20,000 nucleotides of DNA from an uncultured virus (IMG/VR IMGVR_UViG_3300025632_000002) (lineage: Duplodnaviria > Heunggongvirae > Uroviricota > Caudoviricetes > Crassvirales): IMG/VR virus record IMGVR_UViG_3300025632_000002. The stretch is one strand, 5' to 3'. A model generated the notes under the pieces. The model ran no database searches, was not told the origin of the DNA, and saw only the letters and a list, made by a program, of their open reading frames with translations. This document shows positions 3,101 through 18,875 of the stretch, in pieces; the first letter of the stretch is position 1, and each line of letters opens with the position of its first letter. The translations under genes and the position numbers were made by a program.

Positions 3101-6100
3101 AGTCAGCCGACCTACCTACGACGTAATTAGAGGAACAGGAACAACGGCTGCAAGGGATGCCTTAGTTGCTGAATTAAAGGCTTTGGAGGATGAACTAACT
3201 ACAGATAATTTTAATGAAATATCTCCTAAGCTAAAAGCCGCAAGAAAGGCTTTGAAGGATTACGATGATGCTAATTTCCCTTCATCTAAATCTGTTGCCG
3301 CCCCTAAGAAATCAGCCCCTAAGAAAACTGTGTCGGAGCCGACACAAGAGGTGACGGAGGAAGTCGCGGTAGAAGAAACCGTTCCCGTAGAGGTAGAACC
3401 TGTAACCGCTCAAAGCGCGAGATATGCTCAGCTAATCGAGGACACCCCCGATAGTGTAGTTGAGCTGTTCGAGAATTGGACAAAGAGCCTTTTCTCCCCT
3501 GAAATTGAAGCTATTGAAAATAAAGAACCATCTAACAGAACTCGCTCTGAAAGTGCTAAGCTTGCCGCTGTAACCCGTCGAATGAAGAAAGCTTTGGCAG
3601 CAGCAGAGGCGGCGGGTCTAGATAACTCAGCTCAGATAGAGTTGGAGAGGGCTGTTAGGGAGCGGCTTGAAACCCAAGAAGCTGCGGCTGTAGTAGCTGA
3701 AAATGTGTCGGAGCCGACACAAGAGGTGACCGAAGAAGAGCAGGTAGATATTGACGAGTTTTTTGGAGAACAAGACATAGAAGGCGTAGAGAAGGTCTCT
3801 GAGAACCTCGTTATCAACCGCAAGCAAAAAGCTCCCACAGCTGACCCCAAGTCACAGCGGCGAATGAATCGAGTTCGTCAGATGTCGGTCAAGGCAGCGG
3901 CGTCCATAAGGAAGATAGCTCCCGAAGTAAAAATCCTTATTCACGAAAGCCCTGAAGAATATCAGAGATTTGCAGGGGAGCAAACGGCAGGGAATTACAA
4001 CCCCAAGACTAAAACGATTCATATCAACCTCGGCAAAGCGAATCTGTATACGGCGCCTCACGAAGTATTTCACGCTTTGCTTTTGCAAACCATAAGCACT
4101 GATTCCGAAGCTTTAACGGTTTCACGCAAGATGCTCGAGTCGGTACGTAAAGTTGTCGACCCCAATAGCCAAATGGCTAAGGACATAGATGAGTTCGTTG
4201 CTCGCTACGGAGACGCTCCTACCATACAGGACGAAGAGTACCTTGCGCAGCTAACGGGCATCCTTACTGCTGAATATCGTACGCTCAATAAGCCAGCAAA
4301 GAACGCCGTTAAGGATTTTTTACGAAAGCTGGCAAAGATGCTCGGGCTAGAGAAATACTTAGGCCCTGAGTTTCTGAAGACGGACGAGCAGGTCATCGAC
4401 CTTTTGAATACCATCTCTCGGAGGATGTCTGAAGGAGAGTATATCGAGGCAGCTGACGTGCAGGCTATGGGTGATATCCTGTCTGAAGCTACTCCCGCTG
4501 AGCAGGCTCAAGCACAGCGTGAAGTTAGAGACTTCAAACGTAAGGAGAGGGAGAGGAAAGCCACTGAGGAAAACCTTTTAAATAGGAGTCAGGAATACGT
4601 TCAAGACTTTGATGAGTTAGAAAGGCTCAACAATGAAGGCGTTATGTTTCACTTTGGCCCAGTCGATATCCAAGAAGTGATGCCTGAAAAACTTAGGCTA
4701 ATGGTTTCAGGATATGGTATCTACTTTATAGACAAAGCCGAAAGCCCTACAACATATTCTTTGTACGCGAGTCGATATGGAAAAAGGGTTACCCTTGTTG
4801 ATGGAAATGGTATGAATTTAGTTGACTCTGGCTCTAAGATTAGCAAAGAAGAGTTTACCACTCTTATGGACACTTTCAACAAAGAGGTTGCTGCTTTGGA
4901 CGAGGTGAGCCCTGAGATAACCGAGTTGTCTGATTACTTAAACGAGTTAGACTTGGACCTCCAAGGAGCCAATCCTACTTGGTACGAGATGTTAACCACT
5001 ATGTCTCCTGACTTACTGCCTTCTGATAGTGATTTCTTTTTGGGCGGAGTGATTGATAAAGCTTACAACTATACTAATCCTCAGAAGATGTTCATTGCTG
5101 AGGTAACGGCTAAAGCTTTGGGGTATGACGGGGCTACAAGTATAATAGGTAAGGGTAGCATTGAAGAACACAGTGTCGTTAACGTATGGAACTTCGACAA
5201 GGTAAATAAAAATATCATCTCTGACGAGGCAGTTACACCACGTATGCAGGTGGTTCCTCGCCAGCAGGTAGCTGATGCAGCTACATCTATACAGGAATCT
5301 CTGAAGTTTGCAGATAAGAGTTCATTCCCCAACAAGCTTGAGTTTAAGCGAGCTTTACAGGAGCGCTTTGATAACGAGGTGTACCCTCTCATTAAGGAGC
5401 GCTATGGAGTAAAGGACAACCGCTCCAATACCGACCAAGGTCTCAAAGACTATCTCGTTGATGCGTATCTCAACGAGACGCTCACCGCTATCGAAGCGTA
5501 TCCCGACGCTTTGGGATGGTATGACGCTCGTATCACAGGTGCTATGTCGTTGATGGAGAAGCTGCACCCTGAGCTCGCTACCGATAAAGACGCTGCATCT
5601 ACCTTTAAGATTGCATTGGCTATTACATCGAACGGAAACAAGGTATACGACAACTTCGTAGAAGCCAATCGTCAGTATGAATACTTTAAGGAAAACGGTA
5701 AGTTCGATGACACTTACTCTATTGGAGACCAGAGGGCGGGGATACTCTCTACACTAGCCTTTACCAACAAGGCGTTGGAGTCGATGTCTATGGCGGACTT
5801 CACAGCGTTTCTTACTACCAAATACAGGGCGGGCGATTTGAAGTATATGAAGGACGGCAAGAAGACCCCGCTCCTTCCAGGATTCGCTGTTGATGAAGAG
5901 GTTTACGGAGCATCTATCTTTGGTCCTAAGATTGGTAATGGGTTCTTTATGAATCTATATGGCGAGTTCAACCAGCTCACTATGGATAGGTGGTTTATGC
6001 GTCAGTTCGGTCGATTGACGGGAACCCTCATTGATTATGACCAGAAGAAGGTAGACGCGGGAACCAAGCGTTTGAACCGAGCTATCAAAGCTTTGGCTAA

Positions 6101-9100
6101 ACGCAACGCTGCTAAGCTATCTGAGATGATTCCTGGATGGGATAAGATGTCCGCTGAAGAGCTGTCAAGTAAGATTCAGAAGGCTAGTATGGACCTCAAG
6201 AAGAGGGCTACCTTCAAGTCTAACCCTAAGCTCGACGAGGTACGTAAGGCTGGAAATAACTTGAGCAAGCAAGTAAGCGCTGAAGTTGAAGCTCCTCGTA
6301 ACAGCTCACAGCGTAAGTTTATCAACGAGGTCTTTACTGAGTTGCAGGCTAAGCTCAAGAACGATTACGATATTGACATTACGATTGCAGATTTGCAGGC
6401 GGTAAACTGGTATCCAGAGAAGGCTTTATATCAAACATTTAAAGCTGACCAAAGTACGAAGACAGGGAAAGTCGAGACCAGTGACAATGAGCAGCCCGAC
6501 TATGAGAGTGCTGCCAAGAAATTAGTAGAAGAACAGGGCGTATCTAAAAAAGAAATTAAAGAAGATGAAGCAAGACGAAGTAAACAGCTTGAGCGAAACA
6601 CCGCCAATCGAGAAGCTATCGAGCAAAGAGCAGGGGAGCTTAATAAAGATGATATCGAGGCTTCCGAAGTCAAGCGTCTCAAAGACAAAATAATATCCGT
6701 CAAAGAAGACGTCACTTCGTCGGGCCTTGAAGAAGGCGTAGCCCCTCGCCAGCAACTGAGTGATATCGCTACTCCGCTTCCGCGTCAGCAGAAGTCGGTA
6801 CGTGAGGTGGTGCAGCAGGCGAGAGACAATAACTTCAAGGACGCAGCAACCAAAGACTTCCTCAAGCGCAAGGGTGTGCCAACAGCAGACATAGACAAGG
6901 CTATCAAGACCTTGGACGAGGTATACGCCCGAGTGATGAAGGAGATTGACGGCGTCATCACTAAGTCTCAGAAGCGCGGTGTCGACTTCGACACACAACT
7001 GAAGAACGCGCTGGCTTACCTACAAGGCACTAAGCTCTACGAGGATACCACGGATATCCACAGAGAGAAGTTGATGCGTGAGGTACGCGCTAAATTCGAT
7101 AAGAAAGAAAAGCGAGCACCGTCAGCGAAGCGTATCCTTGGAAACATTAAAGACGTCAAGAAGGTGACGCTAAAGGAGAAGGAGGCGCTCAAGATGCAGC
7201 TGAGGCTCGTAGCTAAGACCGCTAAAACCACAGCGAGAGCTTTGGTGGTAGCGAGCAATGAACTGACTAAGTCACTGAAGGAGATGGTCAAGGGTGGTGT
7301 CATCACTGCCAATCAGATGAGCTCTGTCCTGCGTCGGTTCAGCCGAGTGGACCTGTTCAACCCCGCCAGCATCGATAGCTTCTTGGACTATATGGCTAAG
7401 ATATTCGCCGATGCTGAGTACGGAGCGAAGATTGCTAGAATCAAGAAGCTGCTTCCTCGAGCCAAGAAGAATATAAAGTCTAAGATTGGCGTTGCCGACG
7501 TGCTCGGTGACACCCTCACTAAGCTCTTCAATGTCAACCCTACGTTGATACCGATGGAGATGCTTGAGGACTATCAAAATCTCCTTGAGATGATGGGTGC
7601 TGCGAAGAAGGTGCTCCCACTTGCAGACATCAACGATGTAACGGAGGTAGCTAATAAGCTGCTTAACGCGGTATACGAAGAGGTATCGATGGCCGAGGAC
7701 TTGGCCGAGGTATTTGCGAACTACGAGAATAAAGTCATCAAGGACGGCAAGGTAGACTACGCAGCTACCGTTCGCGCTATGATAGCTGACGAGACCATAT
7801 CAGAGGCGGAAGCCACTGTAATGATTAAGTACAAGTCCCGTATCGTAGAGTCTACCACGAAAGAACCTAAGACCGAGGAGGAGCTAGCCGAGGAAAGGGC
7901 TGAGCTTATGTCGGCGGTTGATGCGGCCAAGGTCAACGTCTCGCGTCTCGTTATGGACGAGGAACGAACCTTAGCTCGTCAGCTCGCCAAGCTGATGCGT
8001 ACCGAGGCTATCGAGAGGCTCAGCAACCAGCAGCTAGAGACGCTGCTAGCCGTCATCGACAACATCAACAACGGCTTCGTAACCCACGCGGCCAATAGGT
8101 TGTATGTAAATATGAACGCTTTAAACAATGATAATCAATTGGCAGACTCTTTACAGGAAGCTGACCCGTTATCTATATCAAAGTTTGTAGCCAAGATAAA
8201 AGGTGGCATTACTCAGAATAATAAATTCTTTGAAGCTATCAAGAGACGGCCATTGGCATATATAGATTCATTGTTCGGAGACTTCAAAACTAACCGTATA
8301 TACAACTCTGTATTTAGGCCATTGGCAAAAGCTTTTGACTCTATGAATGTAGAGATTCAAAGAATCGAGGAGCGGTTAGATAATGCAGAAAATGCAGTAA
8401 GAAAGTCTTTTAAACGCAATCCAAATAAAGTTCGCTTGTCATCGTACAAGAGGATGACGTATATGTTACAGCGTGAGTTTGAAGCTAATCCTGATAACGG
8501 ACAGGTAAACCCAGCTGCTGACTTCATCCGAGCTACCATTGACCATATCAATGAAGGGAAGTCTTTCTTCAAGGGCAGAGACGCAGAGATGCTTCAGCAA
8601 ATACTTGACGACTTCGGTGTAAGTGTTAAGGACGCGGACGGAAATGAAGTTATACAGATTGACTCTCAGAAGCTGTACGACTCATTCAATAAAGCAGAGC
8701 GCAATGCGATTGTAGTAGCAGAAGACATAAACAAGTCTCTTGCAAGCAAAGCTTCATTTACAGCAGCAGTAATTCAAGGTAGAAGAGCCGATATATTAAA
8801 CCAGTACGCACACCATAACGTACTGAGTAGTAGCGAGCAAGCTGACAAGTCAACAAGTATATCAGAAATTCAGAAATACAACCAGTCACTTCGGGCCTCT
8901 ACCAAAGCTAAGAATTCAATTGAGCGTACGGGAGCCGTAACTCCATTGAACTTTGATGTGTTAACGTCGGTGTCGCGAGGCGCTAAAATGATGCTAACAG
9001 ACTTCTACCTTACAGACCCTGTACGCACATCACGAAAGACCATATCGAATACGCGTAAAGTTTTAGAGGAAAGGGGCAACGCAACAAAGCAGGACAAAGA

Positions 9101-10715: not shown

Positions 10716-10793
10716 TAGTAAATGGAGGAGGCCCCAGAAAAGGACTGCGTTAAGAACCAAAACCAACAAGAGATTATGTGTTTGTTTTCTCAT
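10701..10793 (-). CDS. Small (30 aa) hydrophobic single-TM protein, not in the ORF track
   Basis: MRKQTHNLLLVLVLNAVLFWGLLHLLSALL*. Its ATG overlaps the TGA of the preceding gene (ATGA coupling at 10790-10793) and it fills the gap to the convergent giant gene, overlapping it by 15 nt. Confidence 0.6.
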   Translation of the reverse strand: MRKQTHNLLLVLVLNAVLFWGLLHLLSALL

Positions 10794-11206
10794 AGCAGCA
10801 TATCTGTGATGTCCTTACCCATCGATATGTGAAGGTACGATACTTCTTTTCGCTTGGTTTTTCCCCTGTCCCAATGCGTCTTTACGGGCAGCGTTTTAAA
10901 TGACCACGATAAAGCGTCGCTTTTTTTAATGTGGTCTAAATCAAAAGCCCATACCCCTTTGGGGGTGGAGTTTAAGTAGATAGGACGAGTGCCGTTCTTT
11001 CCTGATTCCCGAAGCAGTCGGTCCCATTTGCTACGCTCTATCATAAGGTCGTCATAGTGTCGGCGCCGACACTTTAACTCTATCTGCATATTGAGGTCCT
11101 CGCTAAAGCAATCGTAGGTGCTATTGCTTTTTTTGTATGATAGTAAGTCTGGGATTAACTTGTCGCGAAGAACTTTATAAAGGTCTTTCTCATTTATGTA
11201 TCTCAT
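10790..11206 (-). CDS. Putative PD-(D/E)XK-fold nuclease
   Basis: YDCFS...IELKCR motif (D...ExK), then DDLMIERSKWD and IYLNSTPKGVWAFDL. Confidence 0.6.
   Translation of the reverse strand: MRYINEKDLYKVLRDKLIPDLLSYKKSNSTYDCFSEDLNMQIELKCRRRHYDDLMIERSKWDRLLRESGKNGTRPIYLNSTPKGVWAFDLDHIKKSDALSWSFKTLPVKTHWDRGKTKRKEVSYLHISMGKDITDMLL
11057..11072. promoter_or_regulatory. Palindromic site GTGTCG-N4-CGACAC, copy 4 (within the perfect 18-bp palindrome 11056-11073)
   Basis: AGTGTCGGCGCCGACACT, encoding KCRRRH on the - strand in the third codon phase. Confidence 0.6.
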
Positions 11207-11387
11207 CCTCTGTTGAATCTCCTAAATCGATAAGACGTTGATTCAGTATTTTAACGGTGGACCTTAACGATACATAGTCCTCATCCACAAAGCTTTCATA
11301 AATTTCGTCAACAAGGTCGTGGAGTTCACCAACTACATAATTTATGTGGTTGATTTTTCTAACTGTTTCCACGTCCCATTTGCTCAT
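11190..11387 (-). CDS. Hypothetical protein (65 aa, acidic, helical)
   Basis: Packed tightly in the operon; abuts or overlaps both neighbours. Confidence 0.65.
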   Translation of the reverse strand: MSKWDVETVRKINHINYVVGELHDLVDEIYESFVDEDYVSLRSTVKILNQRLIDLGDSTEDEIHK

Positions 11388-11609
11388 CTATCTAAGTAGT
11401 ATTTTGGCCTCTTCAGGGTTAACGCTTTTAATAGCTTGATATATTTTCCTTGATTTCTTGTGGACCTCTTCTATTTCTTTCTTTAAAGAATCGGCCCCAA
11501 GCTCAGTATACATAAAGCAATCTATCTTTAAAAGCGCGTCCACCTTCTGTCTGTCCGTCCACGTTTTAAACCCTAAAATCTTGTCAATGTCGTTTACGTT
11601 ATAACTCAT
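11388..11609 (-). CDS. Hypothetical phage protein (73 aa)
   Basis: Operon packing and protein-like composition. Confidence 0.7.
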   Translation of the reverse strand: MSYNVNDIDKILGFKTWTDRQKVDALLKIDCFMYTELGADSLKKEIEEVHKKSRKIYQAIKSVNPEEAKILLR

Positions 11610-12123
11610 TGATTAATTGAATTAATTTAGATTGTAATTTTTCTTCTTTACCCTCAGGAACTCGGCTCTTAAGGATAAAAAAAAGTTTCGAAAATCTACC
11701 GCCATTGCTTTCATAAGTATCTACAGTAGTTTTTAATTCCTTTAACTGCAAAGATAATGTATCTACAGAATCCCGTAATTCATAAATATATTCCCTGAGC
11801 TCTTTAGCTCCCATATCGTAGACAACATCATACTCTACGCTGTGTGATTTTTTTACTCTGGAGTATATTTTTCGCAGTTCAGGAAGTTGCCCTAGCAAAT
11901 CATTGGCAATTCGCAAATAGTGCAATACGGTACAATGAGTTTTATTTATCGAGCGCGAGATAAGAGTGCATCCGTAGCCCCTTTCTTTTAAAATTAAGGA
12001 GTAAATCATACGAGCATCCACATATTTTCTCGCCCTGGTATTCTCCATTATATCCAACCCGAACTCAATCCCTATGGTTTTTTTCAGCTTCGCTGATTCT
12101 GTATCAAATCGGAATGTGCTCAT
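11599..12123 (-). CDS. DnaA domain IV-like HTH protein with C-terminal coiled coil
   Basis: EFGLDIMENTRARKYVDARMIYSLIL...TLISRSINKTHCTVLHYLR parallels the DnaA_C pattern R......RQ...Y...IG..f.RdHtTVlhA. Confidence 0.7.
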   Translation of the reverse strand: MSTFRFDTESAKLKKTIGIEFGLDIMENTRARKYVDARMIYSLILKERGYGCTLISRSINKTHCTVLHYLRIANDLLGQLPELRKIYSRVKKSHSVEYDVVYDMGAKELREYIYELRDSVDTLSLQLKELKTTVDTYESNGGRFSKLFFILKSRVPEGKEEKLQSKLIQLINEL

Positions 12124-12433
12124 TCGATAGTATTTTATCTAAGTAATTATCTGAATCCACCTTTCTAATATCAATCATCACCACCCATTCAGGCTCTTCC
12201 TTTATGTACTCTACCTCTAAAAAAGTTGCTTCGCCTTCCCTGTTATGAATAACCAATCCTGCCTGTTGCGGAAACAGGTTTCTAATGGGCAAGAACACAA
12301 CGGAGTCTTCGAGCTTCACCCATATATTCATTGCCTCTGAGATAGTAAACAGGCTCTTTATGCTTTCAAGGAATCCATCCTCGGCCACGAATACCGCTTC
12401 GCTATCCTCTGTATACTTCTGTTTTAAATCCAT
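12104..12433 (-). CDS. Hypothetical protein (109 aa)
   Basis: Operon packing with overlaps to both neighbours. Confidence 0.65.
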   Translation of the reverse strand: MDLKQKYTEDSEAVFVAEDGFLESIKSLFTISEAMNIWVKLEDSVVFLPIRNLFPQQAGLVIHNREGEATFLEVEYIKEEPEWVVMIDIRKVDSDNYLDKILSNEHIPI

Positions 12434-12641
12434 AGCCCTCTAGTTCGTTTAATCGGTATTCCTGCAAGCGAGATACCTTCCCTTTCGGGCGTTTAACTTC
12501 CGAGAATAAAACGTCAGCCCCTGGCTTCAAGGCCAGTATATCGGGGATGCCGTTCTTGTTGGTCTTCATAAGCTTCAGGACGTAGTACCCCTCAGCCTCC
12601 AGCTCCTTGATTCGATTGGATTGGATTTGTTGTTCAGTCAT
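12402..12641 (-). CDS. VRR-NUC domain nuclease (putative Holliday junction resolvase)
   Basis: MTEQQIQ...GIPDILAL...FSEVKRPKGKVSRLQ...L...G is the canonical VRR-NUC signature; it sits next to an SNF2-like helicase, as is common in phages. Confidence 0.9.
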   Translation of the reverse strand: MTEQQIQSNRIKELEAEGYYVLKLMKTNKNGIPDILALKPGADVLFSEVKRPKGKVSRLQEYRLNELEGYGFKTEVYRG

Positions 12642-12643
12642 AT

Positions 12644-13876
12644 TTACAAACTTAATAAATCCCTTTTGAAGTGCTTGAGCGTGTAGTCTTTCTTACGCGC
12701 CACAGCTTGGTAGATATCCTTCTCGATACCGCCCTCGGAGAACACCCAGTAGACATCGTTCTTGAGCCTGTCCTTAGTGGTCATCCTATCCCTTGACTGC
12801 CAGTAACTTGTCGCACTGAAGTCGATGTTGTAGTAGACCAAGGCGTCAGCCTTCCTTAGCGATATCCCCTCGCGACCGCTCACTATCTGAAGGGCTATGT
12901 TCTTGTCCGTCTCGTTGAACTCGTCGAGCTCCGTAGTAAGGTCATCCCCGAACACCTTCTTCAAAGCGTTGAGCTCTTCCTTGAACTTATAGAAGATACC
13001 TACCTTCTGCTTCTTGAATCGCTCGCGTATAAACTCCGCCTTGCTGTAGTCCAATACCATCGAAGCGCCGCTCTCGAACTTGACCGTTCCCGAGCATAGT
13101 TGGTGTACCTTCTGCATCAGCTTGACCGCTGTATCCGCCAGTATCACCTCCTCCTTACCCTCGACCACCTTGTCGCGCTTGAGCCGCCGCACCAGATTTT
13201 GTGTCGAGTCCGACATTTTTACGTGCAGCACGTGCTCCTTGGTGTCCACCACGAACCCCGCTTCCTTCTGCGTATACATCAGGGTGTACGGCTTGACCGC
13301 GTCTATGATGGTCTCTTTGCCTCCCGAGTAGTCATTGACCATATGTAGCCCGCGCCTCTGCTGTCGTACGTTGACGAACTCGTTGGCGAACTTATAGAAG
13401 TTCGAGTAGTAGGAGAATGGATTCCCTGGTATCCCATAGACCTGGTGGTACATAGCTGAGTAAGACTCAGGCGTTGGCGTACCTGACATAAGTATGACAT
13501 ACGGCCCGTACTTCGCCAGCAACGACCTTACTTGCTTGGACCGCTTGCTCGGCTTCGGGAACGCACCCATCGTGTGCGCTTCGTCACATATCACCACGTC
13601 CCAATCCCGCGCTGGTATCTTGTGGATACTCTCGTAGTTGATGACGTGGATGAAGTAGTCAGCTCCAAGCATAGCGTTGTCCGCTTCGATACTCGAGATA
13701 GCTTTCTTCTTAGTGAGGAACAATACGTTGCGGGCACCTAACTCTTCGGCAACGGACAGGCTTGTCAATGTCTTACCTGTGCGTACCTCCATCGCTAAGT
13801 AACACCACCCCGAGTCACGCATCTTAGCAACCGCTTTGTCGCGTATCTCTATTTGGTAGTCGCGGAGCTGTATCAT
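12644..13876 (-). CDS. SF2 (SNF2-like) DEAH helicase
   Basis: LRDYQ (Q motif), EVRTGKT (Walker A), ICDEAH (motif II), MSGTP (III), SGREGISL (V) and QSRDR (VI). Confidence 0.9.
   Translation of the reverse strand: MIQLRDYQIEIRDKAVAKMRDSGWCYLAMEVRTGKTLTSLSVAEELGARNVLFLTKKKAISSIEADNAMLGADYFIHVINYESIHKIPARDWDVVICDEAHTMGAFPKPSKRSKQVRSLLAKYGPYVILMSGTPTPESYSAMYHQVYGIPGNPFSYYSNFYKFANEFVNVRQQRRGLHMVNDYSGGKETIIDAVKPYTLMYTQKEAGFVVDTKEHVLHVKMSDSTQNLVRRLKRDKVVEGKEEVILADTAVKLMQKVHQLCSGTVKFESGASMVLDYSKAEFIRERFKKQKVGIFYKFKEELNALKKVFGDDLTTELDEFNETDKNIALQIVSGREGISLRKADALVYYNIDFSATSYWQSRDRMTTKDRLKNDVYWVFSEGGIEKDIYQAVARKKDYTLKHFKRDLLSL
13201..13216. promoter_or_regulatory. Palindromic site, copy 5 (one mismatch)
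   Basis: GTGTCG AGTC CGACAT. On the - strand, TGTCGGACTCGACACAA matches copies 1, 2 and 6 at 15 of 17 positions. Confidence 0.5.
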
Positions 13877-16311
13877 ATGTCCAGCTTAGTATTGACCTCC
13901 AGCTCGTGCGAGAACCGCATACGCATCCAGTTGCCGCTGGAGTCCCGCCCCTCCTCTGGTTTTACACCCGTTTTGTAATCGCTGTATTTGTTCAGCCACC
14001 TGTAGAATTTAATCCTTGACAGAGACTCTCGAGATTTAGGCCCGTAATCGGGGTAGTCCCTTATAAACTCCTCGTACAAGAAGTTTTTGTATACCTTGAC
14101 CCCTACCTCGAGGTATTGGTTGCGCTCGCTATTCTCTACAAGCCCGCACCACTCAAGGAACTCGTGAGAAGTTTCAGTCCCTAGCCGATTTTTTTTGTTG
14201 TTTACCATAGGGCCTACCACCAATCCTTTATTGATGTACATCTGTAAGCAGGAGACCATATAGTTATCAAACTGACACCACTCGTCGTCGTCCCAGTCGC
14301 TGAACATAAGCTTCTTAAACTCGTCCTGTGGGGTAAATGTCTTCGTATAAAACTGATGTAGCTCGAGCTCCCACTTCCTGCGTTCGAAACTGTTGCCGCT
14401 ACCCTTGATAGCATAGTTGGTGGTGATAGCCACCTTTGGGCTTTTATCGAACGGTATTTTGATGGCGTCCTTGTTCTTCTTCTCGAGGGTCAATCCCTCC
14501 GTCACCACTGAGAACAAACGCTCGAACTCGAAATGTTTCCTTACATCATCGAAGCAAAGTATCTGCGTATCTGCCGACACCAGCTGGTAGGCAAAAGAAC
14601 GCTCGAAAGCGAAGCTCTTGCCGTCAATTACGACCATCTTCTTCATCTGCGAAAGAGCATTCATAAAGATACCCTTCCCCGTTCCTCCCTCTGGATTGTC
14701 GCTTATAACCTCGTCATTGAGTATTACTGCGGGGCAGTAGCTGAGGTTCTTGTAGCCGTGCATCATATAACCTATTGTGCTCTCCATCGAGGTAATTCGA
14801 GCTTGGTCCCCGTTGCATATATTGGATATAAATACCGTGTAGTCGCATCCTTTTATTTCGCATACTTCAAAATTCCTGTCTATTACGTGGTCTTTCCATA
14901 CGTAACCATCTAGGTCAAGATAGTCAATTGGTTTGATATCTTTTCCTGAGATACGTACCGCCCGATTGCGGTAGTATAGATACGCGGTGTCCTTGGTGTC
15001 CGCGATAAAGAGTACTTCGATGGAGCTGAGGAGCGTAAGGAATTCTTCCCTAAAGTATTTCGTGTTCTCCGCGAAGTAATTGTACACCGCCATATCGTCG
15101 AGCTCAAGGAGGTGGTCAAGGATAAAGTCTTTAATCTCTTTCTCGGAAGTGTGGTCGATGAGGTTGTTGGTGACGCGTACGAAGATATAGTTCTTGCTGC
15201 CTTCAGGGCAGTACTTAAAGAACCCGTTTTCCTCCAAGAAATCTTTAAAGAGTATGTGGACTATCTTGATGACGCCCTTCTCGGATTTTTCCCAAAAGGT
15301 TTGGCTTGCCTGTTCTTTTTCTAGCGCATCGATAACGCTATCTATTTCTCCGCCCTCAATCGACAAGTCTTCTAGTTGAGAGCGGATTTCTTTTTTTGAC
15401 ACACCACGTCGTAGCTTGTTCTTGACTTGGTTTAACCTGTCTTCATCCTCGTAGCACTTCGTGTTGAAGTTAGCGGTCTGGCTGTACGCTGAAGCTACCG
15501 TAGCCTTTATCTCTTTTTCTTTGAAGTCGTCGCTTTGGTAGCGCGATAAGACGTACTCGGCAAGCGAACGGTTGATACCGAAATCGTTGAACGCTGCGGC
15601 CAGTATATATGTGTTCTGATTGCGCTGTCCCTCGACCATAGGGTACTTACGCTCCCACCACTTAACCAGACGCTCCACTACTTTATTTTCGTCGGTGATA
15701 GGTATAGTAGGCGCATCCATATGCCTGTGTACAGGCGTGTACTCTATCTCGTCAACCCTATCCCATACGCTGGCTTTTTCGTTGATATGGATAAGCGGGT
15801 CGTGCGATTCATAACAAACCCTACTTATATTTTTCGAAGTGGTATCGAAATGGGAGTTCTGATAAAATCGCTCAAGCGAGTTAAAGAAATTCTTATGGTT
15901 CTCTATATCGGATGGGACCTTGACCAATACCTTGAGGCCATTGCCGCTAGGAGATATAAATACCGCATAGCTGTATTTGCTTTCGCTCAGCTTTTTCTTA
16001 TCGCTCAATAAGTCCTTCTTCTTTTCGTATCCGTCGAAGTCGAGACAGATGAGTCCGCTGTGTTCTTGTATGGCAGAGTCCAATCGTTTCGTAAACGTAC
16101 CGCTAAAGCAAATCGCGGGCAGCTGTTTCTTAAGCTCGTTGCGCTCGGCTTTGCGCTTCTCTGCGCGTACCTTTTTTATGATGTCTTTGGTCGGAGTAGC
16201 GACTCCGTTGCTGTTCGCTCCTTCGCGAATCCTGTCCAATACCACAGTTACATCCCTGTAGAATGGGGTGGATGTATCTTGGATATTGCGAAATATGGTG
16301 ATTTGATGCAT
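13873..16311 (-). CDS. Primase-helicase (BT4734/VirE-N-like primase, PriCT-like domain, SF3-like P-loop helicase)
   Basis: KKQLPAICFSG, SGLICLDFD, FISPSGNGLKVLV and SRVCYESHDP (BT4734-like AEP); GQRNQNTYILAA (PriCT-like); GGTGKG Walker A, LCFDD Walker B, ITTN sensor and SFERR Arg finger. Confidence 0.88.
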   Translation of the reverse strand: MHQITIFRNIQDTSTPFYRDVTVVLDRIREGANSNGVATPTKDIIKKVRAEKRKAERNELKKQLPAICFSGTFTKRLDSAIQEHSGLICLDFDGYEKKKDLLSDKKKLSESKYSYAVFISPSGNGLKVLVKVPSDIENHKNFFNSLERFYQNSHFDTTSKNISRVCYESHDPLIHINEKASVWDRVDEIEYTPVHRHMDAPTIPITDENKVVERLVKWWERKYPMVEGQRNQNTYILAAAFNDFGINRSLAEYVLSRYQSDDFKEKEIKATVASAYSQTANFNTKCYEDEDRLNQVKNKLRRGVSKKEIRSQLEDLSIEGGEIDSVIDALEKEQASQTFWEKSEKGVIKIVHILFKDFLEENGFFKYCPEGSKNYIFVRVTNNLIDHTSEKEIKDFILDHLLELDDMAVYNYFAENTKYFREEFLTLLSSIEVLFIADTKDTAYLYYRNRAVRISGKDIKPIDYLDLDGYVWKDHVIDRNFEVCEIKGCDYTVFISNICNGDQARITSMESTIGYMMHGYKNLSYCPAVILNDEVISDNPEGGTGKGIFMNALSQMKKMVVIDGKSFAFERSFAYQLVSADTQILCFDDVRKHFEFERLFSVVTEGLTLEKKNKDAIKIPFDKSPKVAITTNYAIKGSGNSFERRKWELELHQFYTKTFTPQDEFKKLMFSDWDDDEWCQFDNYMVSCLQMYINKGLVVGPMVNNKKNRLGTETSHEFLEWCGLVENSERNQYLEVGVKVYKNFLYEEFIRDYPDYGPKSRESLSRIKFYRWLNKYSDYKTGVKPEEGRDSSGNWMRMRFSHELEVNTKLDI

Positions 16312-16494
16312 AAATGTGTAGGCTTATGTAGACTTGGTGTAGACTTTGTGTAGCCAATTAAAGGCTAACTTATTGATAACCAATACCAGTGTTAAGAATG
16401 TTAACTTTTACTCTACTCTAGTGAGAAAAAAAATATATATACAGTAGTAATATATATATATATATAAGGGGACGTAAAGTCAACACACATCACT
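16312..16494. other. Putative replication origin
   Basis: Non-coding and AT-rich, with (TA)8 at 16451-16466 and an A8 run. It is flanked by the imperfect inverted repeat TGTTAACTTTTAC (16399-16411) / GTAAAGTCAACA (16474-16485) and lies next to the primase-helicase gene. Confidence 0.5.
16316..16353 (+). repeat. Four helically phased direct repeats (G/A)TGTAG(RCTT), iteron-like
   Basis: TGTAG starts at 16317, 16327, 16338 and 16349 (spacing 10, 11, 11), immediately upstream of the primase start. Confidence 0.7.
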
Positions 16495-16538
16495 CGATAG
16501 AAAAGGGGTTGAGGAACAGACACCCCAACCCCCTATCG
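16495..16538 (-). terminator. Putative hairpin/intrinsic terminator after the SSB-like gene
   Basis: GGGGTTG (16505-16511) pairs with CAACCCC (16526-16532), extended by CGATAG/CTATCG. There is only a short U4 tail on the - strand. Confidence 0.5.
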
Positions 16539-16551
16539 TTATGGTATCGAA

Positions 16552-16809
16552 TTAGAACGGAGATTCCTCCGCCTCTTCTTTCTTCTTGCCCTTGCTGGGG
16601 TCAGGGACGAAGGTGTCAAGCAAGAGGTTGTACCCCCCTGCTTTACGTGGAGCAAGCGTGAAGCGTACCTCACCGCGTTCGGTCTTGTGTTCTTCTAAGA
16701 ACTTCACGAATTCTTCAACACGTACTACTACGTTACCTGTGACCCAGTCGGGTGCTTCTTTGCGTGGTTCATAGATATTGAACCCTTCAGCATAAATTGT
16801 ATCTGACAT
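16552..16809 (-). CDS. Small putative single-stranded DNA-binding protein
   Basis: Beta-rich core with an acidic tail ending EEAEESPF, downstream of the SSAP and exonuclease genes. I prefer the ATG at 16809 to the track's TTG at 16830. Confidence 0.6.
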   Translation of the reverse strand: MSDTIYAEGFNIYEPRKEAPDWVTGNVVVRVEEFVKFLEEHKTERGEVRFTLAPRKAGGYNLLLDTFVPDPSKGKKKEEAEESPF

Positions 16810-16870
16810 AGATATGATTTTATTCCCCAAATTAATAACCTCACCCCATCGGGGACATAGAGCTCGGCTT

Positions 16871-17629
16871 TTATAGTGTCTCTCTGATGATATACGACTC
16901 TAAATTGTCAGTGGCATTTTCTCCGAAGAACTGCTCGTATACCTTTAGTGCTCGCTCGACCTTCTCCTCACCACCACGCACGAAGGCTTCGCTAGGCTCA
17001 TAGATACCTACCTGTGCGCTCTTCTTGTCGATGGCATAGAACACCAATGGCTTACCGAATATATTCTGGTATATATAGCACTGGCTGTCGTAGTTGTATT
17101 TCTTCGCTGAGAAGCGGAACTCCTTGATGTTGCTCGTGGTCTTTAGGTCGATGATGCAATCCTTGGATATGATGTCGGCTTTCCCTTTCCACCATACGCC
17201 ATTAAACTGCTTCACGCCTGGCACCTCGAAGACGTTTTCATTCAAGTAAATCTGCTGGTACAGCTCGAAGTTCGTCATCATAACGTTGACCAAGTAGTCC
17301 ATCTCTTGCTTCTCTTTCTCAAGAAGCAAGACCTCTTTGCCGCTGTCTTCAATTGCCCTCTTGTACACGTTAGTATTGCGAGAGTAACTATCTACGAACT
17401 GCCAATCCTTGACCTTCTCAGGCTCGAGAATCGATTGGTGGAAGTACCTACCCTTGGCGAACGCTTGGTTGTCAGGTCGGCTGATGCGGAACTCACGCGG
17501 GTTACTCAGCAGAGAGCCTACGTCTGAGTTCGATATGAACTTCTTACCGAAATCGCCATAGTAGTCGTTGTCGTCACGTAGACGTTCAATAGCCTTAGCT
17601 ACCTGTTCCTTCGTGAGCTTACTCAGCAT
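16871..17629 (-). CDS. RecE/exonuclease VIII-like PD-(D/E)XK exonuclease (DUF3799-like)
   Basis: ISNS, GRYFHQSILEP, KGKADII, IIDLKTT and YNYDSQCYIY motifs. Confidence 0.85.
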   Translation of the reverse strand: MLSKLTKEQVAKAIERLRDDNDYYGDFGKKFISNSDVGSLLSNPREFRISRPDNQAFAKGRYFHQSILEPEKVKDWQFVDSYSRNTNVYKRAIEDSGKEVLLLEKEKQEMDYLVNVMMTNFELYQQIYLNENVFEVPGVKQFNGVWWKGKADIISKDCIIDLKTTSNIKEFRFSAKKYNYDSQCYIYQNIFGKPLVFYAIDKKSAQVGIYEPSEAFVRGGEEKVERALKVYEQFFGENATDNLESYIIRETL

Positions 17630-18212
17630 CTGCTATGGCCTTCTTAAAAGATTTCTTCACTGAGGCCGTGACCTTGTACTTAGAACCAATCTCTTCGACG
17701 AGGGCTTCTAAACCCTTGGCTTTGTTTTTTACGATATACTTTAGAACCTTGTCCCAGTTCTCATCGTCTACGTCAAGCTTCAAAAGCTTCTTTTCCTTTG
17801 GAGCTTCTTCTTGTGTCGGCTCCGACACACTTTCTTCGCCCGTCCATAAGCTTAATCCCAAACCGTGAAGCGCAATCGCCTTGACTGTAGAGCGCATAAT
17901 GGTGTCGTTGATATCGCGAGAAGTGACCTTTTCGATATTGATGGAGTTATTGCGGTTGTCCATCACAGGCAAGTAGTCGATATGTTCGAGACCGTTAACT
18001 ATCAAGCCTACCTTTACATAAGCAGTAACGCCATCGGTAAAATAGTTTAGACCCGTGTGCTCGCTTTCGTAAACTATGCGCTGTGCGCTAGGATAATGCG
18101 TTTTAAGGATATGCCACGCGTGTGACCAAGGTAGGTAGTTAAGGTGTCCTTTCTTTTTTACCTTCTCTTTTACGCTTATTGCGCTGAGAGTTTTGTATGA
18201 ATTGTTTTCCAT
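17619..18212 (-). CDS. Sak-like (DUF1071/Rad52-fold) single-strand annealing protein
   Basis: KKGHLNYLPWSHAW, LPVMDNRN and INDTIMRSTVKAIALHGLGLSLWTGE. Confidence 0.85.
   Translation of the reverse strand: MENNSYKTLSAISVKEKVKKKGHLNYLPWSHAWHILKTHYPSAQRIVYESEHTGLNYFTDGVTAYVKVGLIVNGLEHIDYLPVMDNRNNSINIEKVTSRDINDTIMRSTVKAIALHGLGLSLWTGEESVSEPTQEEAPKEKKLLKLDVDDENWDKVLKYIVKNKAKGLEALVEEIGSKYKVTASVKKSFKKAIADAE
17813..17828. promoter_or_regulatory. Palindromic site GTGTCG-N4-CGACAC, copy 6
   Basis: GTGTCG GCTC CGACAC. The reverse complement shares 21 nt (TGTGTCGGAGCCGACACAAGA) with copies 1 and 2 and encodes the same VSEPTQE in an unrelated protein. Confidence 0.6.
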
Positions 18213-18601
18213 TTTTGTTCCTCTATTTTTTGGAGTTTTTCTTTTGATTTTTTGAGCTGTTGCTGGAGCGAAGAAGTATGACTTGGTCGCTCGAAATCGT
18301 CATCCTCTATCTTTTTTAACAAGGATGTTATTTTGTTCTTGTAGTTCTCTATGCATACGTTGTACACACCGAGCCGCCACCCTTCTTGTTCGAATACAGA
18401 GTACTCTCTGCTGGTGACCTCGTCGTAGTAGTCCCCCTGTAACATCGTGTTATAAATAGTTATGGTCTTCTTTTTATTTGACCTAACTATCTTTACTCCG
18501 TACAAAAGGTACCCCTCCGATTCGTCGCTGCCTAATTGGATGCTGTATGCATCGTTCTTTGCCAGCTCGTATATTTCTCGGAGGTCATATACTTTCGACA
18601 A
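18176..18601 (-). CDS. Hypothetical phage protein (141 aa) with C-terminal coiled coil
   Basis: Operon packing; no recognised motif. Confidence 0.7.
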   Translation of the reverse strand: MSKVYDLREIYELAKNDAYSIQLGSDESEGYLLYGVKIVRSNKKKTITIYNTMLQGDYYDEVTSREYSVFEQEGWRLGVYNVCIENYKNKITSLLKKIEDDDFERPSHTSSLQQQLKKSKEKLQKIEEQKWKTIHTKLSAQ

Positions 18602-18875
18602 AGCGGGCTATCTCAGGGTCGTGGTCATACATCTCTTTCGCTTTCTTCTTACCATATATAATGGTAGAGTGCAGAGGAGATGAGCCTGTGCGTTCTTCTA
18701 AGAACTTCTGTATGTAGGAGATGGGTATGTCTTTTTTCTCGCATACAAGGAAGAATACTTGACGTGGCTCACTGCTCACGCGCTTCTTACTCATACTAAG
18801 AGCGACATCCTCGTCTACACCGAATTGCTTGCATACCTCTGTGAGATACTCAGGCATTTTATTGTGATTTAACAT
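18585..18875 (-). CDS. Stand-alone DnaA domain IV-like HTH protein
   Basis: VCKQFGVDEDVALSMSKKRVSSEPRQVFFLVC...HSTIIYGKKK matches the DnaA_C pattern V...f.v....l.s..R.......RQ...HsTv. Confidence 0.7.
   Translation of the reverse strand: MLNHNKMPEYLTEVCKQFGVDEDVALSMSKKRVSSEPRQVFFLVCEKKDIPISYIQKFLEERTGSSPLHSTIIYGKKKAKEMYDHDPEIARFVESI

What the first reader, a model, noticed from the sequence alone, without database searches (positions are those of the whole stretch)
3330..17828. Dispersed intragenic palindrome GTGTCG-N4-CGACAC: candidate genome-wide protein-binding site system
Seen: five perfect copies (3330, 3705, 6979, 11057, 17813) and one single-mismatch copy (13201), all inside CDSs of four unrelated genes on both strands. 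The 4-nt spacer varies (GAGC, ACTT, GCGC, AGTC, GCTC). The motif is read in all three codon phases (VSEPT, GVDFDT, KCRRRH, MSDST), so protein-level selection cannot explain it. With 12 fixed bases the chance expectation is about 1e-3 per 20 kb at uniform composition; the motif was chosen post hoc, but four perfect copies remain after discounting the local duplicate. Inference: fixed arms with a free spacer suggest an operator for a dimeric protein. Spacing of roughly 2-5 kb within genes fits a parS/matS/stoperator-like role (genome organisation, ejection, packaging, replication or transcriptional roadblock) better than ordinary promoter control. Candidate binders in the window are the two DnaA-IV-like HTH proteins.
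Basis: partly seen in the sequence, partly recalled or inferred. Interest (0 to 1): 0.85.

Follow-up and report, generated by a model that had tools for sequence, protein, structure and literature searches.

The report
Phage-specific palindrome punctuating gene starts
The repeated 16-base palindrome is real and under selection, but in the whole phage genome it mostly sits just in front of early genes, so it looks like a lineage-specific gene-boundary signal and not a chromosome-organising site.

Summary
The window has 5 perfect and 1 one-mismatch GTGTCG-N4-CGACAC, against about 0.01-0.04 expected. Only the N4 spacer occurs, and the arms are kept at all 5 orthologous sites in a relative that is 78-95% identical around them.

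The window gives a biased view. It is a piece of a ~60-65 kb podophage of a large uncultured aquatic family, probably infecting Flavobacteriia. In the complete relative G001, 14 perfect copies exist. Five of them end 14-16 nt before the ATG of small early genes.

About half of 80 related loci carry their own palindrome of similar build, with other arms, at the same place. In some it is followed at once by a type III hammerhead ribozyme.

Flanks in relatives lengthen the stem with G:U pairs on the sense strand. Homology between close relatives breaks at the palindromes.

Best reading (about 0.45): an intercistronic RNA stem-loop or regulatory cassette boundary, comparable to the PeSLs of T4-type phages. 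A DNA operator read by a dimer, stoperator-like, stays a live rival (about 0.25).

The two DnaA-IV-like HTH proteins do not covary with the palindrome. Transcript ends were not obtained.

The parts
3330..3345 (+). Perfect copy GTGTCGGAGCCGACAC inside the 3510-aa ORF; encodes VSEPT in an acidic linker
   Evidence: same 16-mer at the orthologous place in G001 and in L018, L004, L031, L034 and L009
3705..3720 (+). Perfect copy, second member of a 26-nt direct repeat (3330-3355 / 3705-3730)
   Evidence: G001 has one copy here (34270) and lacks the segment between the repeats
3330..3730 (+). 375-nt in-frame segment bounded by two motif copies; an insertion/deletion difference from G001, consistent with recombination between copies
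6979..6994 (+). Perfect copy GTGTCGACTTCGACAC inside the 3510-aa ORF (GVDFDT)
   Evidence: identical in G001 at 40085, flanks 95% identical
11057..11072 (-). Perfect copy, full 16-bp palindrome GTGTCGGCGCCGACAC, inside ORF 10790-11206; the only window copy not followed by A on the coding strand
   Evidence: G001 keeps the arms and changes the spacer (GCGT), flanks 81%; RNA fold -13.3 kcal/mol, z -3.7
13201..13216 (-). One-mismatch copy (coding strand ATGTCGGACTCGACAC) inside the helicase gene; the changed base makes a Met codon
   Evidence: the same mismatch is kept in G001 at 46429, flanks 88%; weak hairpin, -5.1 kcal/mol, z -0.7
17813..17828 (-). Perfect copy in the linker of the Sak-like annealing protein (coding strand GTGTCGGAGCCGACAC, VSEPT). 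The orthologous place carries each lineage's own palindrome
   Evidence: L061 8476 has GTGTCTTCAAAGACAC (VSSKT); MW202828.1 has GTGTCGTTAACGACAC (VSLTT) in its Sak-like CDS
11599..12123 (-). 174-aa protein with a DnaA-domain-IV-like HTH; Pfam also gives a sub-threshold syntaxin-like (helical) match at 69-144. Proposed binder, tested and not supported
   Evidence: Bac_DnaA_C E 0.0013; STX6_10_61_N E 4.7e-05, both under the curated cut-offs; alignment by palindrome class
18585..18875 (-). 96-aa DnaA-domain-IV-like HTH protein; proposed binder, tested and not supported
   Evidence: E 2.4e-6; alignment by palindrome class

Best explanation
The palindrome is a lineage-specific gene-boundary element of a large family of ~60-65 kb aquatic podophages. 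Its normal place is the gap between two cistrons of the long early/middle operon: stop codon, a few bases, the 16-nt palindrome, a 14-23 nt A-rich and G-poor leader, then the next ATG. I read it as an RNA stem-loop of 6 pairs with a 4-nt loop in the sense transcript that punctuates the polycistronic RNA. In this reading it marks the 5' edge of the unstructured ribosome landing pad of the next gene. After a cut just 3' of it, it stays as a 3' cap on the upstream RNA. In relatives that cut would be made by a hammerhead ribozyme that starts 2-3 nt after the palindrome; in this phage it would presumably be made by a host endonuclease in the A-rich leader. The arms are perfectly kept while the loop drifts, and all copies in a genome share one arm sequence that differs between lineages. 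A sequence-specific reader (a phage factor, not identified) or homogenisation among copies must therefore act on top of the structure. As repeated homology, the copies also serve as crossover points at which early genes, and in-frame protein segments, are swapped. The six copies in the window are the minority class, set into coding sequence at tolerant linker positions. Shown here: enrichment, spacing, conservation, position, orientation, the ribozyme next to it in relatives, flank pairing in relatives, and homology breakpoints. Inferred: that it acts as RNA, that cleavage happens, that it stabilises or insulates RNA, and what the intragenic copies do.
For: 1. Position. In G001, five copies end 14-16 nt before the ATG of successive early ORFs. 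In MW202828.1, 7 of 14 copies lie 16-39 nt before depositor-annotated CDS starts, mostly 3 nt after a TAA. Across 34 loci, of 186 non-redundant copies, 62 lie within 35 nt and 56 lie 36-120 nt upstream of an ORF of at least 40 aa; 30 are intragenic and 38 are other.
2. Leader. For about 18 nt after the palindrome, G is 1-14% and A is 32-56%.
3. Orientation. The base after the motif on the coding strand is A in 5 of 6 window copies, 13 of 15 G001 copies and 7 of 7 G002 copies. The mirror base before it is T in only 3 of 6 and 5 of 15.
4. Ribozymes. Rfam type III hammerhead matches (E 3.7e-6 to 2.8e-4, below the gathering score) begin 2-3 nt after the palindrome in L072 and L126. A pattern scan gave 19 hammerhead-like sites on the sense strand and 1 on the antisense strand; 15 of the 19 directly follow that locus's own palindrome.
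5. RNA-type pairing in relatives. At least 3 further flanking pairs, counting G:U on the sense strand, occur in 36% of spaced, 18% of direct, 21% of other and 3% of intragenic copies, against 5% in a control with swapped flanks. The sense strand folds better than the antisense strand by more than 1 kcal/mol in 28 spaced copies, and the reverse holds in 9.
6. L063 has no fixed palindrome. Ten of its early genes are each preceded by a different hairpin followed by one conserved leader. By my reading of those sequences about half the loops are GNRA and one is UUCG.
7. Window copies fold as hairpins of -8.9 to -13.3 kcal/mol in 5 of 6 cases.
8. Crossover points. Homology between the G001 and G002 early regions ends at or just after palindromes, with unrelated ORFs in between. 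The window has a 375-nt motif-flanked segment that G001 lacks.
9. No host-type -7 box (TAnnTTTG) lies on the coding strand between G001 48.1 and 62.3 kb, although several late genes have one. Only 14 of 186 copies have one within 60 nt upstream. The early genes are therefore probably co-transcribed through the palindromes.
Against: No transcript ends could be obtained: the RNA runs are contigs only. This phage, G001 and the window have no hammerhead match. In the GTGTCG lineage (window, G001, MW202828.1) the flanks do not lengthen the stem; all flank-pairing evidence comes from relatives. The loops here are not stable RNA tetraloops. The 7th and 10th bases are purine and pyrimidine on both strands, in proportions that fit two independent half-sites, which suits a duplex read by a dimer. 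Inner arm positions vary independently in L084, and hybrid sites with a mid-stem mismatch (GTGTCT....AGAGAC) occur above chance: 5 'other' single mismatches against 0.4 expected. Intragenic copies are conserved and follow each lineage's own sequence, and a boundary-element model does not explain that. L071's AT-only arms (ATTAATCCGGATTAAT, 1-4 nt before the ATG) would make a very weak RNA hairpin. A purely structural role does not explain why all copies in a genome share one arm sequence.
Confidence: 0.45

Rival explanations
1. DNA operator network. A phage-encoded symmetric dimer binds the duplex palindrome at every cistron junction and at some sites inside genes. It blocks or times transcription of the early/middle operon, working like the stoperators of cluster A mycobacteriophages or the KorA/KorB operators of IncP plasmids (both recalled, not read here).
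For: Arms are perfect while the centre is free. The N4 spacing is strict and puts the half-site centres 10 bp apart. The purine/pyrimidine preference at positions 7 and 10 is symmetric and fits independent half-sites. Arm position 6 varies independently in the two arms, and hybrid half-site combinations exist. Both arms change together between lineages. Conserved copies inside genes follow the lineage's sequence. Gene gaps of stop + 3 nt + palindrome + leader leave no room for separate promoters, so a roadblock would act on read-through transcription.
Against: No covarying DNA-binding protein was found. Both HTH candidates keep the same recognition helix across palindrome classes and occur where there is no palindrome. 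No repressor, ParB or KorB family hit appeared. Flanks in relatives lengthen the stem with G:U pairs on the sense strand only, and a duplex site does not need that. L063 has varied hairpins at the same place. The flank is asymmetric and co-oriented with the genes. Hammerheads lie directly next to it on the sense strand.
Confidence: 0.25
2. Phage-specific promoter. The palindrome with the A-run after it is where a non-host-type transcription machine starts (an injected virion RNA polymerase as in N4, or host polymerase redirected by a phage factor), giving short leaders.
For: Host-type -7 boxes are absent from the leftward early/middle region but present before late genes. The distance to the ATG is fixed at 14-23 nt. 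A follows the motif. The hammerhead stem III starts about 3 nt after the palindrome. N4 promoters are hairpins centred at -11, followed by a four-base run before the start (review PMC4496689, passages read). The genome encodes giant virion proteins, and the 3510-aa ORF has a weak hit to PF21769 vRNAP_dom (E 0.0064, below threshold).
Against: No polymerase was found: no hit to solved structures apart from a chance-level one, no T7-type B/C motifs and no DxDGD motif in the giant proteins. Some copies sit between a stop codon and a canonical terminator with no gene to drive; 9 of 186 have a terminator-like hairpin within 80 nt downstream. Copies lie inside late structural genes. Flank pairing uses G:U on the sense strand, so the RNA must start upstream of the palindrome, and the N4-type hairpin forms on the template strand. 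In several relatives a host-type TATATTTG box lies 15-17 nt upstream of the palindrome, which puts the palindrome inside the leader.
Confidence: 0.1
3. A repeat kept mainly by its own spread. A short palindromic repeat is copied or homogenised by the phage's Sak/exonuclease recombination system, as with REP or Rickettsia palindromic elements (recalled), or is a dedicated cassette-exchange site, with little or no regulatory role.
For: Homology breakpoints lie at palindromes between G001 and G002. The window has a motif-flanked 375-nt insertion/deletion. Three different proteins carry the same peptide E(T/S)VSEPTQ(E/D)E, encoded by a near-identical stretch of about 25 nt. The palindrome class changes among phages with near-identical primases in a quick tree. 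The phage encodes a Sak-like annealing protein and an exonuclease.
Against: In this lineage the loop between the arms varies while both arms stay perfect. Short conversion tracts would homogenise the loop too, so this points to selection on the arms. The tight distance to the ATG and the co-orientation with genes point to function. No transposase or integrase family was hit. Copies at orthologous places persist across lineages whose primases are about 65% identical.
Confidence: 0.1

Closest known systems
PeSL (promoter-early stem-loop) cassettes of T4-type phages (Arbiol et al. 2010, PMC2839356, search listing only; Comeau et al. 2014, PMC4122927, abstract read)
   Same: A short conserved motif that contains a stem-loop is repeated before many small, variable early ORFs. 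Insertions, deletions and gene replacements between close relatives have their breakpoints at the motif.
   Different: PeSLs are composite terminator/promoter sequences with a host-type early promoter. Here only 14 of 186 copies have a host-type -7 box nearby. The conserved part is only 16 nt, it is a strict palindrome with a lineage-specific sequence, it also lies in frame inside genes, and in relatives it is coupled to a hammerhead ribozyme.
Stoperators of cluster A mycobacteriophages (L5, Bxb1; recalled, no paper read here)
   Same: Many copies of one short site spread over a phage genome, in short gene gaps and inside genes, co-oriented with transcription.
   Different: As recalled, stoperators are asymmetric 13-bp sites bound by the immunity repressor of a temperate phage. 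Here the core is a palindrome, no repressor or integrase was found, and the relatives show signs of RNA folding.
Hairpin promoters of the coliphage N4 virion RNA polymerase (review PMC4496689, passages read)
   Same: A short GC-rich inverted repeat followed by a run of one base, just upstream of early genes, in a podophage with a giant virion protein.
   Different: N4 has three such promoters at one genome end, with a 3-nt loop, and the hairpin forms on the template strand. Here there are 14-15 copies including late genes, a 4-nt loop, pairing evidence on the sense strand, and no recognisable polymerase.
Tandem hammerhead ribozymes in phage and prophage polycistronic RNAs (Perreault et al. 2011, PMC3088659, passages read), and RNase III sites between T7 early genes (recalled)
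   Same: The early polycistronic RNA is cut between cistrons. As recalled for the T7 sites, a stem-loop is left at the 3' end of the upstream piece.
   Different: This phage has no ribozyme match. The hairpin has one fixed sequence per genome. A 6-bp stem is too short for RNase III (established knowledge).
REP/BIME elements, Rickettsia palindromic elements and integron attC sites (recalled)
   Same: Palindromic repeats specific to one genome at gene boundaries (REP, attC), or inserted in frame in genes (Rickettsia elements); cassette-like arrays of small ORFs (attC).
   Different: Much shorter at 16 nt. No RAYT transposase or integron integrase was found. The distance to the next start codon is tightly fixed.

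Membership tests
PeSL-type mobile regulatory cassette | Conserved motif repeated upstream of small early ORFs | tested here: met
PeSL-type mobile regulatory cassette | Contains a host-type early promoter | tested here: not met
   TAnnTTTG lies within 60 nt upstream of 14 of 186 copies; none on the coding strand of the G001 early region. The Bacteroidota -7 consensus is recalled
PeSL-type mobile regulatory cassette | Contains a stem-loop | tested here: met
PeSL-type mobile regulatory cassette | Insertion/deletion and replacement breakpoints between close relatives lie at the motif | tested here: met
   G001 against G002; window against G001, 375-nt segment
N4-type hairpin promoter | Phage encodes a T7-like virion RNA polymerase | tested here: inconclusive
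   Only PF21769 at E 0.0064, below the cut-off; no PDB relative; no RxxxKx(5-9)YG, [VIL]HD[SAG] or DxDGD motifs; no fold prediction was made
N4-type hairpin promoter | Hairpin forms on the template strand, 3-nt loop, centred at -11 | tested here: not met
   The loop is 4 nt. Flank pairing in relatives uses G:U on the sense strand. Start sites are not testable with these tools
N4-type hairpin promoter | A few copies, confined to the early end of the genome | tested here: not met
   14 copies in G001, including 16434, 34270 and 40085 in late genes
Stoperator (cluster A mycobacteriophage) | Asymmetric site bound by the immunity repressor of a temperate phage | tested here: not met
   The core is palindromic. 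No repressor or integrase family hit. The definition is recalled
Stoperator (cluster A mycobacteriophage) | Many copies, co-oriented with transcription, in gene gaps and inside genes | tested here: met
parS/ParB, KorB operator or matS/MatP type organiser | Cognate ParB, KorB or MatP protein encoded | tested here: not met
   No such family in PHROGs or Pfam scans of window and G001 proteins. Many early ORFs have no family at all, and some G001 ORFs were never scanned (20 of 62 were scanned in neither library), so absence is not proven
parS/ParB, KorB operator or matS/MatP type organiser | Sites placed without regard to gene starts | tested here: not met
   118 of 186 copies lie within 120 nt upstream of an ORF start; distances are tight at 14-23 nt
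DnaA box / DnaA domain IV site | Site specificity follows the HTH protein | tested here: not met
   The recognition helix is the same across palindrome classes, and both proteins occur in relatives without a palindrome
Intrinsic terminator | Hairpin followed by a T/U run on the transcribed strand | tested here: not met
   In the window and G001 an A-run follows. Of 186 family copies, 20 have a T-rich tail
Hammerhead-coupled processing site | Self-cleaving ribozyme directly next to it | tested here: not met
   Met in relatives; no match in the window or in G001 40-64.5 kb

The most novel reading that the evidence does not exclude
The palindrome is the recognition or crossover site of a dedicated exchange system that belongs to this phage family. 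A lineage-specific reader, RNA- or DNA-binding and still among the unnamed early ORFs, co-evolves with a private 16-nt code. The same site serves as the joint at which whole early genes, and in-frame protein segments (the VSxxT linkers in the giant virion protein, the Sak-like protein and a head-region protein), are swapped between co-infecting phages. In effect this would be an integron-like or PeSL-like cassette system that also works inside open reading frames.
Probability: 0.15. Interest if true: 0.8.

Novelty: new variant of a known kind. Interest (0 to 1): 0.55.

Why it matters
If the reading holds, a large and widespread family of uncultured aquatic phages marks the start of each early gene with a private 16-nt palindrome. 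The search found 272 relatives in IMG/VR, and only one GenBank genome had a full-length primase match. Some lineages pair the palindrome with a self-cleaving ribozyme. That would be a compact natural design for expressing many genes from one transcript in hosts that are not thought to use Shine-Dalgarno sites (recalled). It would also give a handle for annotating gene starts in these genomes. It is a concrete case in which regulatory repeats double as joints for swapping genes and protein segments. The lineage-specific switches of the arm sequence give a clean system for asking how a many-copy cis code and its reader change together.

Tried and rejected
1. Own genome: none is held. Megablast of the window against 50,697 phage records found nothing.

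2. RNA evidence: four marine metatranscriptome runs hold 11-14% of the sampled words. Laid on the window, they are short, low-depth contigs scattered over it and say nothing about RNA ends, strand or level. They give no support either way.

3. Rfam: no family at gathering score in the window, G001 40-64.5 kb, L072, L126 or L057. At E up to 5 nothing relevant turned up in the window or G001.

4. tRNA-like T-arm strings next to two G001/G002 copies: ARAGORN found no tRNA.

5. Giant protein as virion RNA polymerase: not shown. I made no fold prediction.

6. DnaA-IV-like HTH proteins as readers: rejected on alignments. Their presence is only weakly linked to having a palindrome.

7. Host-type promoter in front of each copy: rejected. 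The sigma-70 style scan is not informative: 26 sites against 24 expected.

8. My early idea that position 7/10 is a G:U pair on the sense strand was wrong. Counted on both strands it is purine/pyrimidine symmetric.

9. Compensated double changes within a genome: 1 observed against 0.35 expected, so not informative.

10. My first hammerhead pattern was mis-specified and was corrected.

11. The primase tree is the quick version only, because the careful search did not finish.

12. Host genome check, covariation screen over whole genomes, structure prediction and complex prediction were not done.

13. Earlier-findings look-ups by place gave nothing.


Full report
OBSERVATION

The pattern GTGTCG-N4-CGACAC occurs five times perfectly (3330, 3705, 6979, 11057, 17813) and once with one mismatch (13201). 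Dinucleotide shuffles predict 0.01. All six copies lie inside ORFs on both strands: three in a 3510-aa ORF, one in an unnamed 138-aa ORF, one in a helicase gene and one in a Sak-like annealing-protein gene.

- In 300 codon-preserving shuffles the mean was 0.037 perfect copies (maximum 1), against 5 observed.
- Among spacers of 0-12 nt only N4 occurs: window 5, G001 14, G002 7, plus one N5 copy in G001.
- Everted and direct arrangements give none.

One detail to add: 3330, 3705 and 17813 are the same 16-mer on their coding strands, and all three encode VSEPT.

WHAT THE WINDOW IS

No whole genome is held, and no close phage record exists in the GenBank collection. The exact 16-mer led to IMG/VR contigs. 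One of them, G001, is 64,532 bp long, has 127-bp terminal repeats, is rated complete, and is 84-94% identical to the window over most of it. The window corresponds to about G001 31.1-53.2 kb.

G001 has structural genes on the plus strand from 1 to 43.8 kb. These include terminase, portal and giant ORFs of 2336, 1821 and 4162 aa. Replication genes and many small unnamed early ORFs lie on the minus strand from 43.9 to 59 kb. It also encodes GroEL/GroES-like genes.

The primase-helicase finds Flavobacterium, Polaribacter and Maribacter phages only in part. It finds one metagenomic podovirus, MW202828.1, at 65%. The host is therefore probably a member of the Flavobacteriia; this is inferred. In IMG/VR, 272 stretches encode a relative of the primase, and 80 were fetched.

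THE MOTIF IN WHOLE GENOMES

G001 has 14 perfect copies and the fragment G002 has 7. The reversed-pattern control gives 0. In G001 ten of the 14 lie between 51 and 59 kb.

Read on the coding strand, five of them end 14-16 nt before the ATG of successive small ORFs. The motif is followed by an A-run: A at +1 in 13 of 15 G001 copies, 5 of 6 window copies and 7 of 7 G002 copies. The mirror position before the motif is T in only 5 of 15 and 3 of 6. The element is therefore asymmetric in its flank and co-oriented with the genes.

In MW202828.1, whose CDSs were annotated by its depositors, 14 copies of GTGTCGTTAACGACAC lie in 27 kb. Seven are 16-39 nt upstream of a CDS start, usually 3 nt after the previous TAA. 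Seven are inside CDSs.

The intragenic picture in the window is a sampling effect. The window covers the giant gene and the replication genes, and it stops just short of the early region.

SELECTION

At the five orthologous places the window and G001 share all 12 arm bases, including the same mismatch at 13201. Their flanks are 78-95% identical, and a spacer base differs at one site.

The site in the Sak-like linker carries each lineage's own palindrome:
- VSEPT here;
- VSSKT (GTGTCTTCAAAGACAC) in L061;
- VSLTT in MW202828.1.

A site downstream of the helicase gene is GTGTCT....AGACAC in many relatives and GTCTCT....AGAGAC in L113, with the same flanks. The intragenic copies are therefore kept, and they follow the genome-wide sequence.

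FAMILY-WIDE PATTERN

About half of the 80 loci have a dominant repeated palindrome of similar build, mostly 6-N4-6, but with their own arms:
- GTGTCG, GTGTCT (about 20 loci) and GTGTCC;
- GTCTCT, GAGGGT, GAGAGT, GGGGAC, GACGCC and GGAGCG;
- ATTAATCCGGATTAAT;
- three with other spacings.

GTGTCG, GTGTCT and GTGTCC share the core GTGTC-N6-GACAC.

Of 186 non-redundant copies in 34 loci:
- 62 lie within 35 nt of the start of an ORF;
- 56 lie 36-120 nt upstream of one;
- 30 are intragenic on the operon strand;
- 38 are other.

The leader after the palindrome is G-poor and A-rich.

The 36-120 nt class is largely explained by an inserted type III hammerhead ribozyme. Rfam matches it at E 3.7e-6 to 2.8e-4, below the gathering score, in L072 and L126, starting 2-3 nt after the palindrome. 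A pattern scan found 19 such sites on the sense strand and 1 on the antisense strand, and 15 of the 19 directly follow the locus's own palindrome. Tandem hammerheads that cut phage-associated polycistronic RNAs are known (PMC3088659, passages read). This phage has none.

L063 lacks a fixed palindrome. Ten of its early genes are each preceded by a different hairpin followed by one conserved leader. By my reading of those sequences the loops are often GNRA, and one is UUCG.

DNA OR RNA

For RNA:
- In relatives the flanks lengthen the stem beyond the 16-nt core, often through G:U pairs that exist only on the sense strand. At least 3 extra pairs occur in 36% of spaced, 18% of direct, 21% of other and 3% of intragenic copies, against 5% in a swapped-flank control.
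- The sense strand folds better than the antisense strand in 28 spaced copies, and the reverse holds in 9.
- Five of the six window copies fold at -8.9 to -13.3 kcal/mol.

For a duplex read by a dimer:
- In this lineage the flanks do not lengthen the stem.
- Positions 7 and 10 are purine and pyrimidine on both strands, in proportions expected for independent half-sites.
- Position 6 varies independently in the two arms in L084.
- Hybrid sites with a mid-stem mismatch exist above chance: single-mismatch copies number 26 against 0.5 expected, and 5 of them are not wobble-type.
- The loop drifts while the arms stay perfect, which argues for selection on the arm sequence and not mere homogenisation.

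Against a promoter:
- No polymerase was found.
- Some copies are followed at once by a canonical terminator.
- The flank pairing requires transcription to start upstream of the palindrome.

Two points keep the promoter idea alive. The G001 early region has no host-type -7 box on its coding strand, although late genes have them. And the geometry recalls N4 promoters.

THE PROPOSED BINDERS

Both HTH proteins are DnaA-domain-IV-like. The orthologues keep the same recognition helix, (D/N)H(S/A)T(I/V)(I/L)H, in phages whose palindromes are GTGTC, GTCTC, GAGGG, GGGGA, GGAGC or ATTAA. They are also present in relatives that have no palindrome. They are not the specificity determinant.

A better target for them may be the region upstream of the primase gene (window 16312-16551). 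It holds a terminator, a (TA)n tract and three AAGTCTACAC-like direct repeats. This was not tested.

RECOMBINATION

The window has a 375-nt in-frame segment bounded by a 26-nt direct repeat that contains the motif, whereas G001 has a single copy there.

Between the G001 and G002 early regions, homology ends at or just after palindromes. Unrelated ORFs lie between them, and one 531-nt insertion begins 12 nt after a palindrome.

In a quick primase tree the palindrome class changes among close relatives: L093, L095 and L091 have near-identical primases, and L059 lies inside a GTGTC clade. The tree carries long-branch warnings and the careful search did not finish.

This is the behaviour described for PeSL cassettes of T4-type phages (PMC4122927, abstract read).

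VERDICT

Its most likely nature is a lineage-specific gene-boundary stem-loop, or regulatory cassette joint, of the early/middle operon, and not a chromosome-organising or packaging site. I put RNA-level punctuation at about 0.45, a stoperator-like DNA operator at about 0.25, a promoter at about 0.1 and a mainly self-propagating repeat at about 0.1.

Two questions stay open: what reads the arm sequence, and what the conserved intragenic copies do. Transcript ends, which would decide between the models, could not be obtained.

I did not search the papers specifically for this element. The searches made were on other terms, so I make no claim that it is absent from print.

Noticed in passing
L072 600-654, 984-1038, 2030-2084; L126 1113-1167 (and pattern hits in L057, L068, L089, L092, L103, L119, L127): Arrays of type III hammerhead ribozymes in the early operons of relatives, each starting 2-3 nt after that phage's palindrome. 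Rfam scores are 36-43 bits, below the 48.5 gathering score. Successive cuts would release unit-length RNAs with 5'-OH and cyclic-phosphate ends.
   Followed up: partly
window 16312-16551 (minus strand); similar element in G001 about 59.56-59.76 kb: The gap upstream of the primase gene holds an intrinsic terminator, a (TA)n tract, the string AAGTTAACATTCTTAACA (also present near G001 59.68 kb) and three direct repeats AAGTCTACAC / AAGTCTACAT / AAGCCTACAC just before the ATG. It looks like an origin or a control region and is a more natural target for the DnaA-IV-like HTH proteins.
   Followed up: no
G001 about 58.70-59.08 kb (L048 18700-19080, minus strand): A GC-rich stretch at the head of the leftward operon with many self-complementary segments and tRNA-like T-arm strings (GGTTCGAA). 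ARAGORN and Rfam find nothing. It may be a structured non-coding RNA. Two palindrome copies lie in it.
   Followed up: partly
window 183-10715: The 3510-aa ORF is mosaic against the 4162-aa G001 version: the middle 2-4.6 kb does not align. It carries an HExxH string (HEVFH, near residue 1293) and a weak hit to PF21769 vRNAP_dom. Its function is unknown; it is probably an ejected virion protein.
   Followed up: partly
L063 790-4854: This relative has no fixed palindrome. Ten early genes each have a different hairpin, directly followed by the conserved leader GTCAGTTACAAAC...ATG. The conserved and variable parts are swapped compared with this phage.
   Followed up: partly
G001 about 59585-59601: A single N5 variant, GTGTCGAGAGTCGACAC, lies in the divergent control region. 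Its A-run faces the plus-strand genes to its right.
   Followed up: no
G001 16434 (ORF 16305-17393), 34270 and 51048; window 3330, 3705, 17813: Three unrelated proteins (the giant protein, a head-region protein after the portal, and the Sak-like protein) share the peptide E(T/S)VSEPTQ(E/D)E, encoded by a near-identical stretch of about 25 nt around the motif.
   Followed up: partly
G001 60886-62511 and 10761-11324; MW202828.1 40671-42561: The phage encodes GroEL-like and GroES-like chaperonins. In G001 a host-type -7 box lies before the GroEL-like gene.
   Followed up: no
L064 about 15832-15907; L128 about 17324-17370: Short tandem repeats (15-nt units containing AGAGAGAGCCG; 12-nt units CTACCTGATGAC) in relatives, probably coding repeats in late genes.
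   Followed up: no
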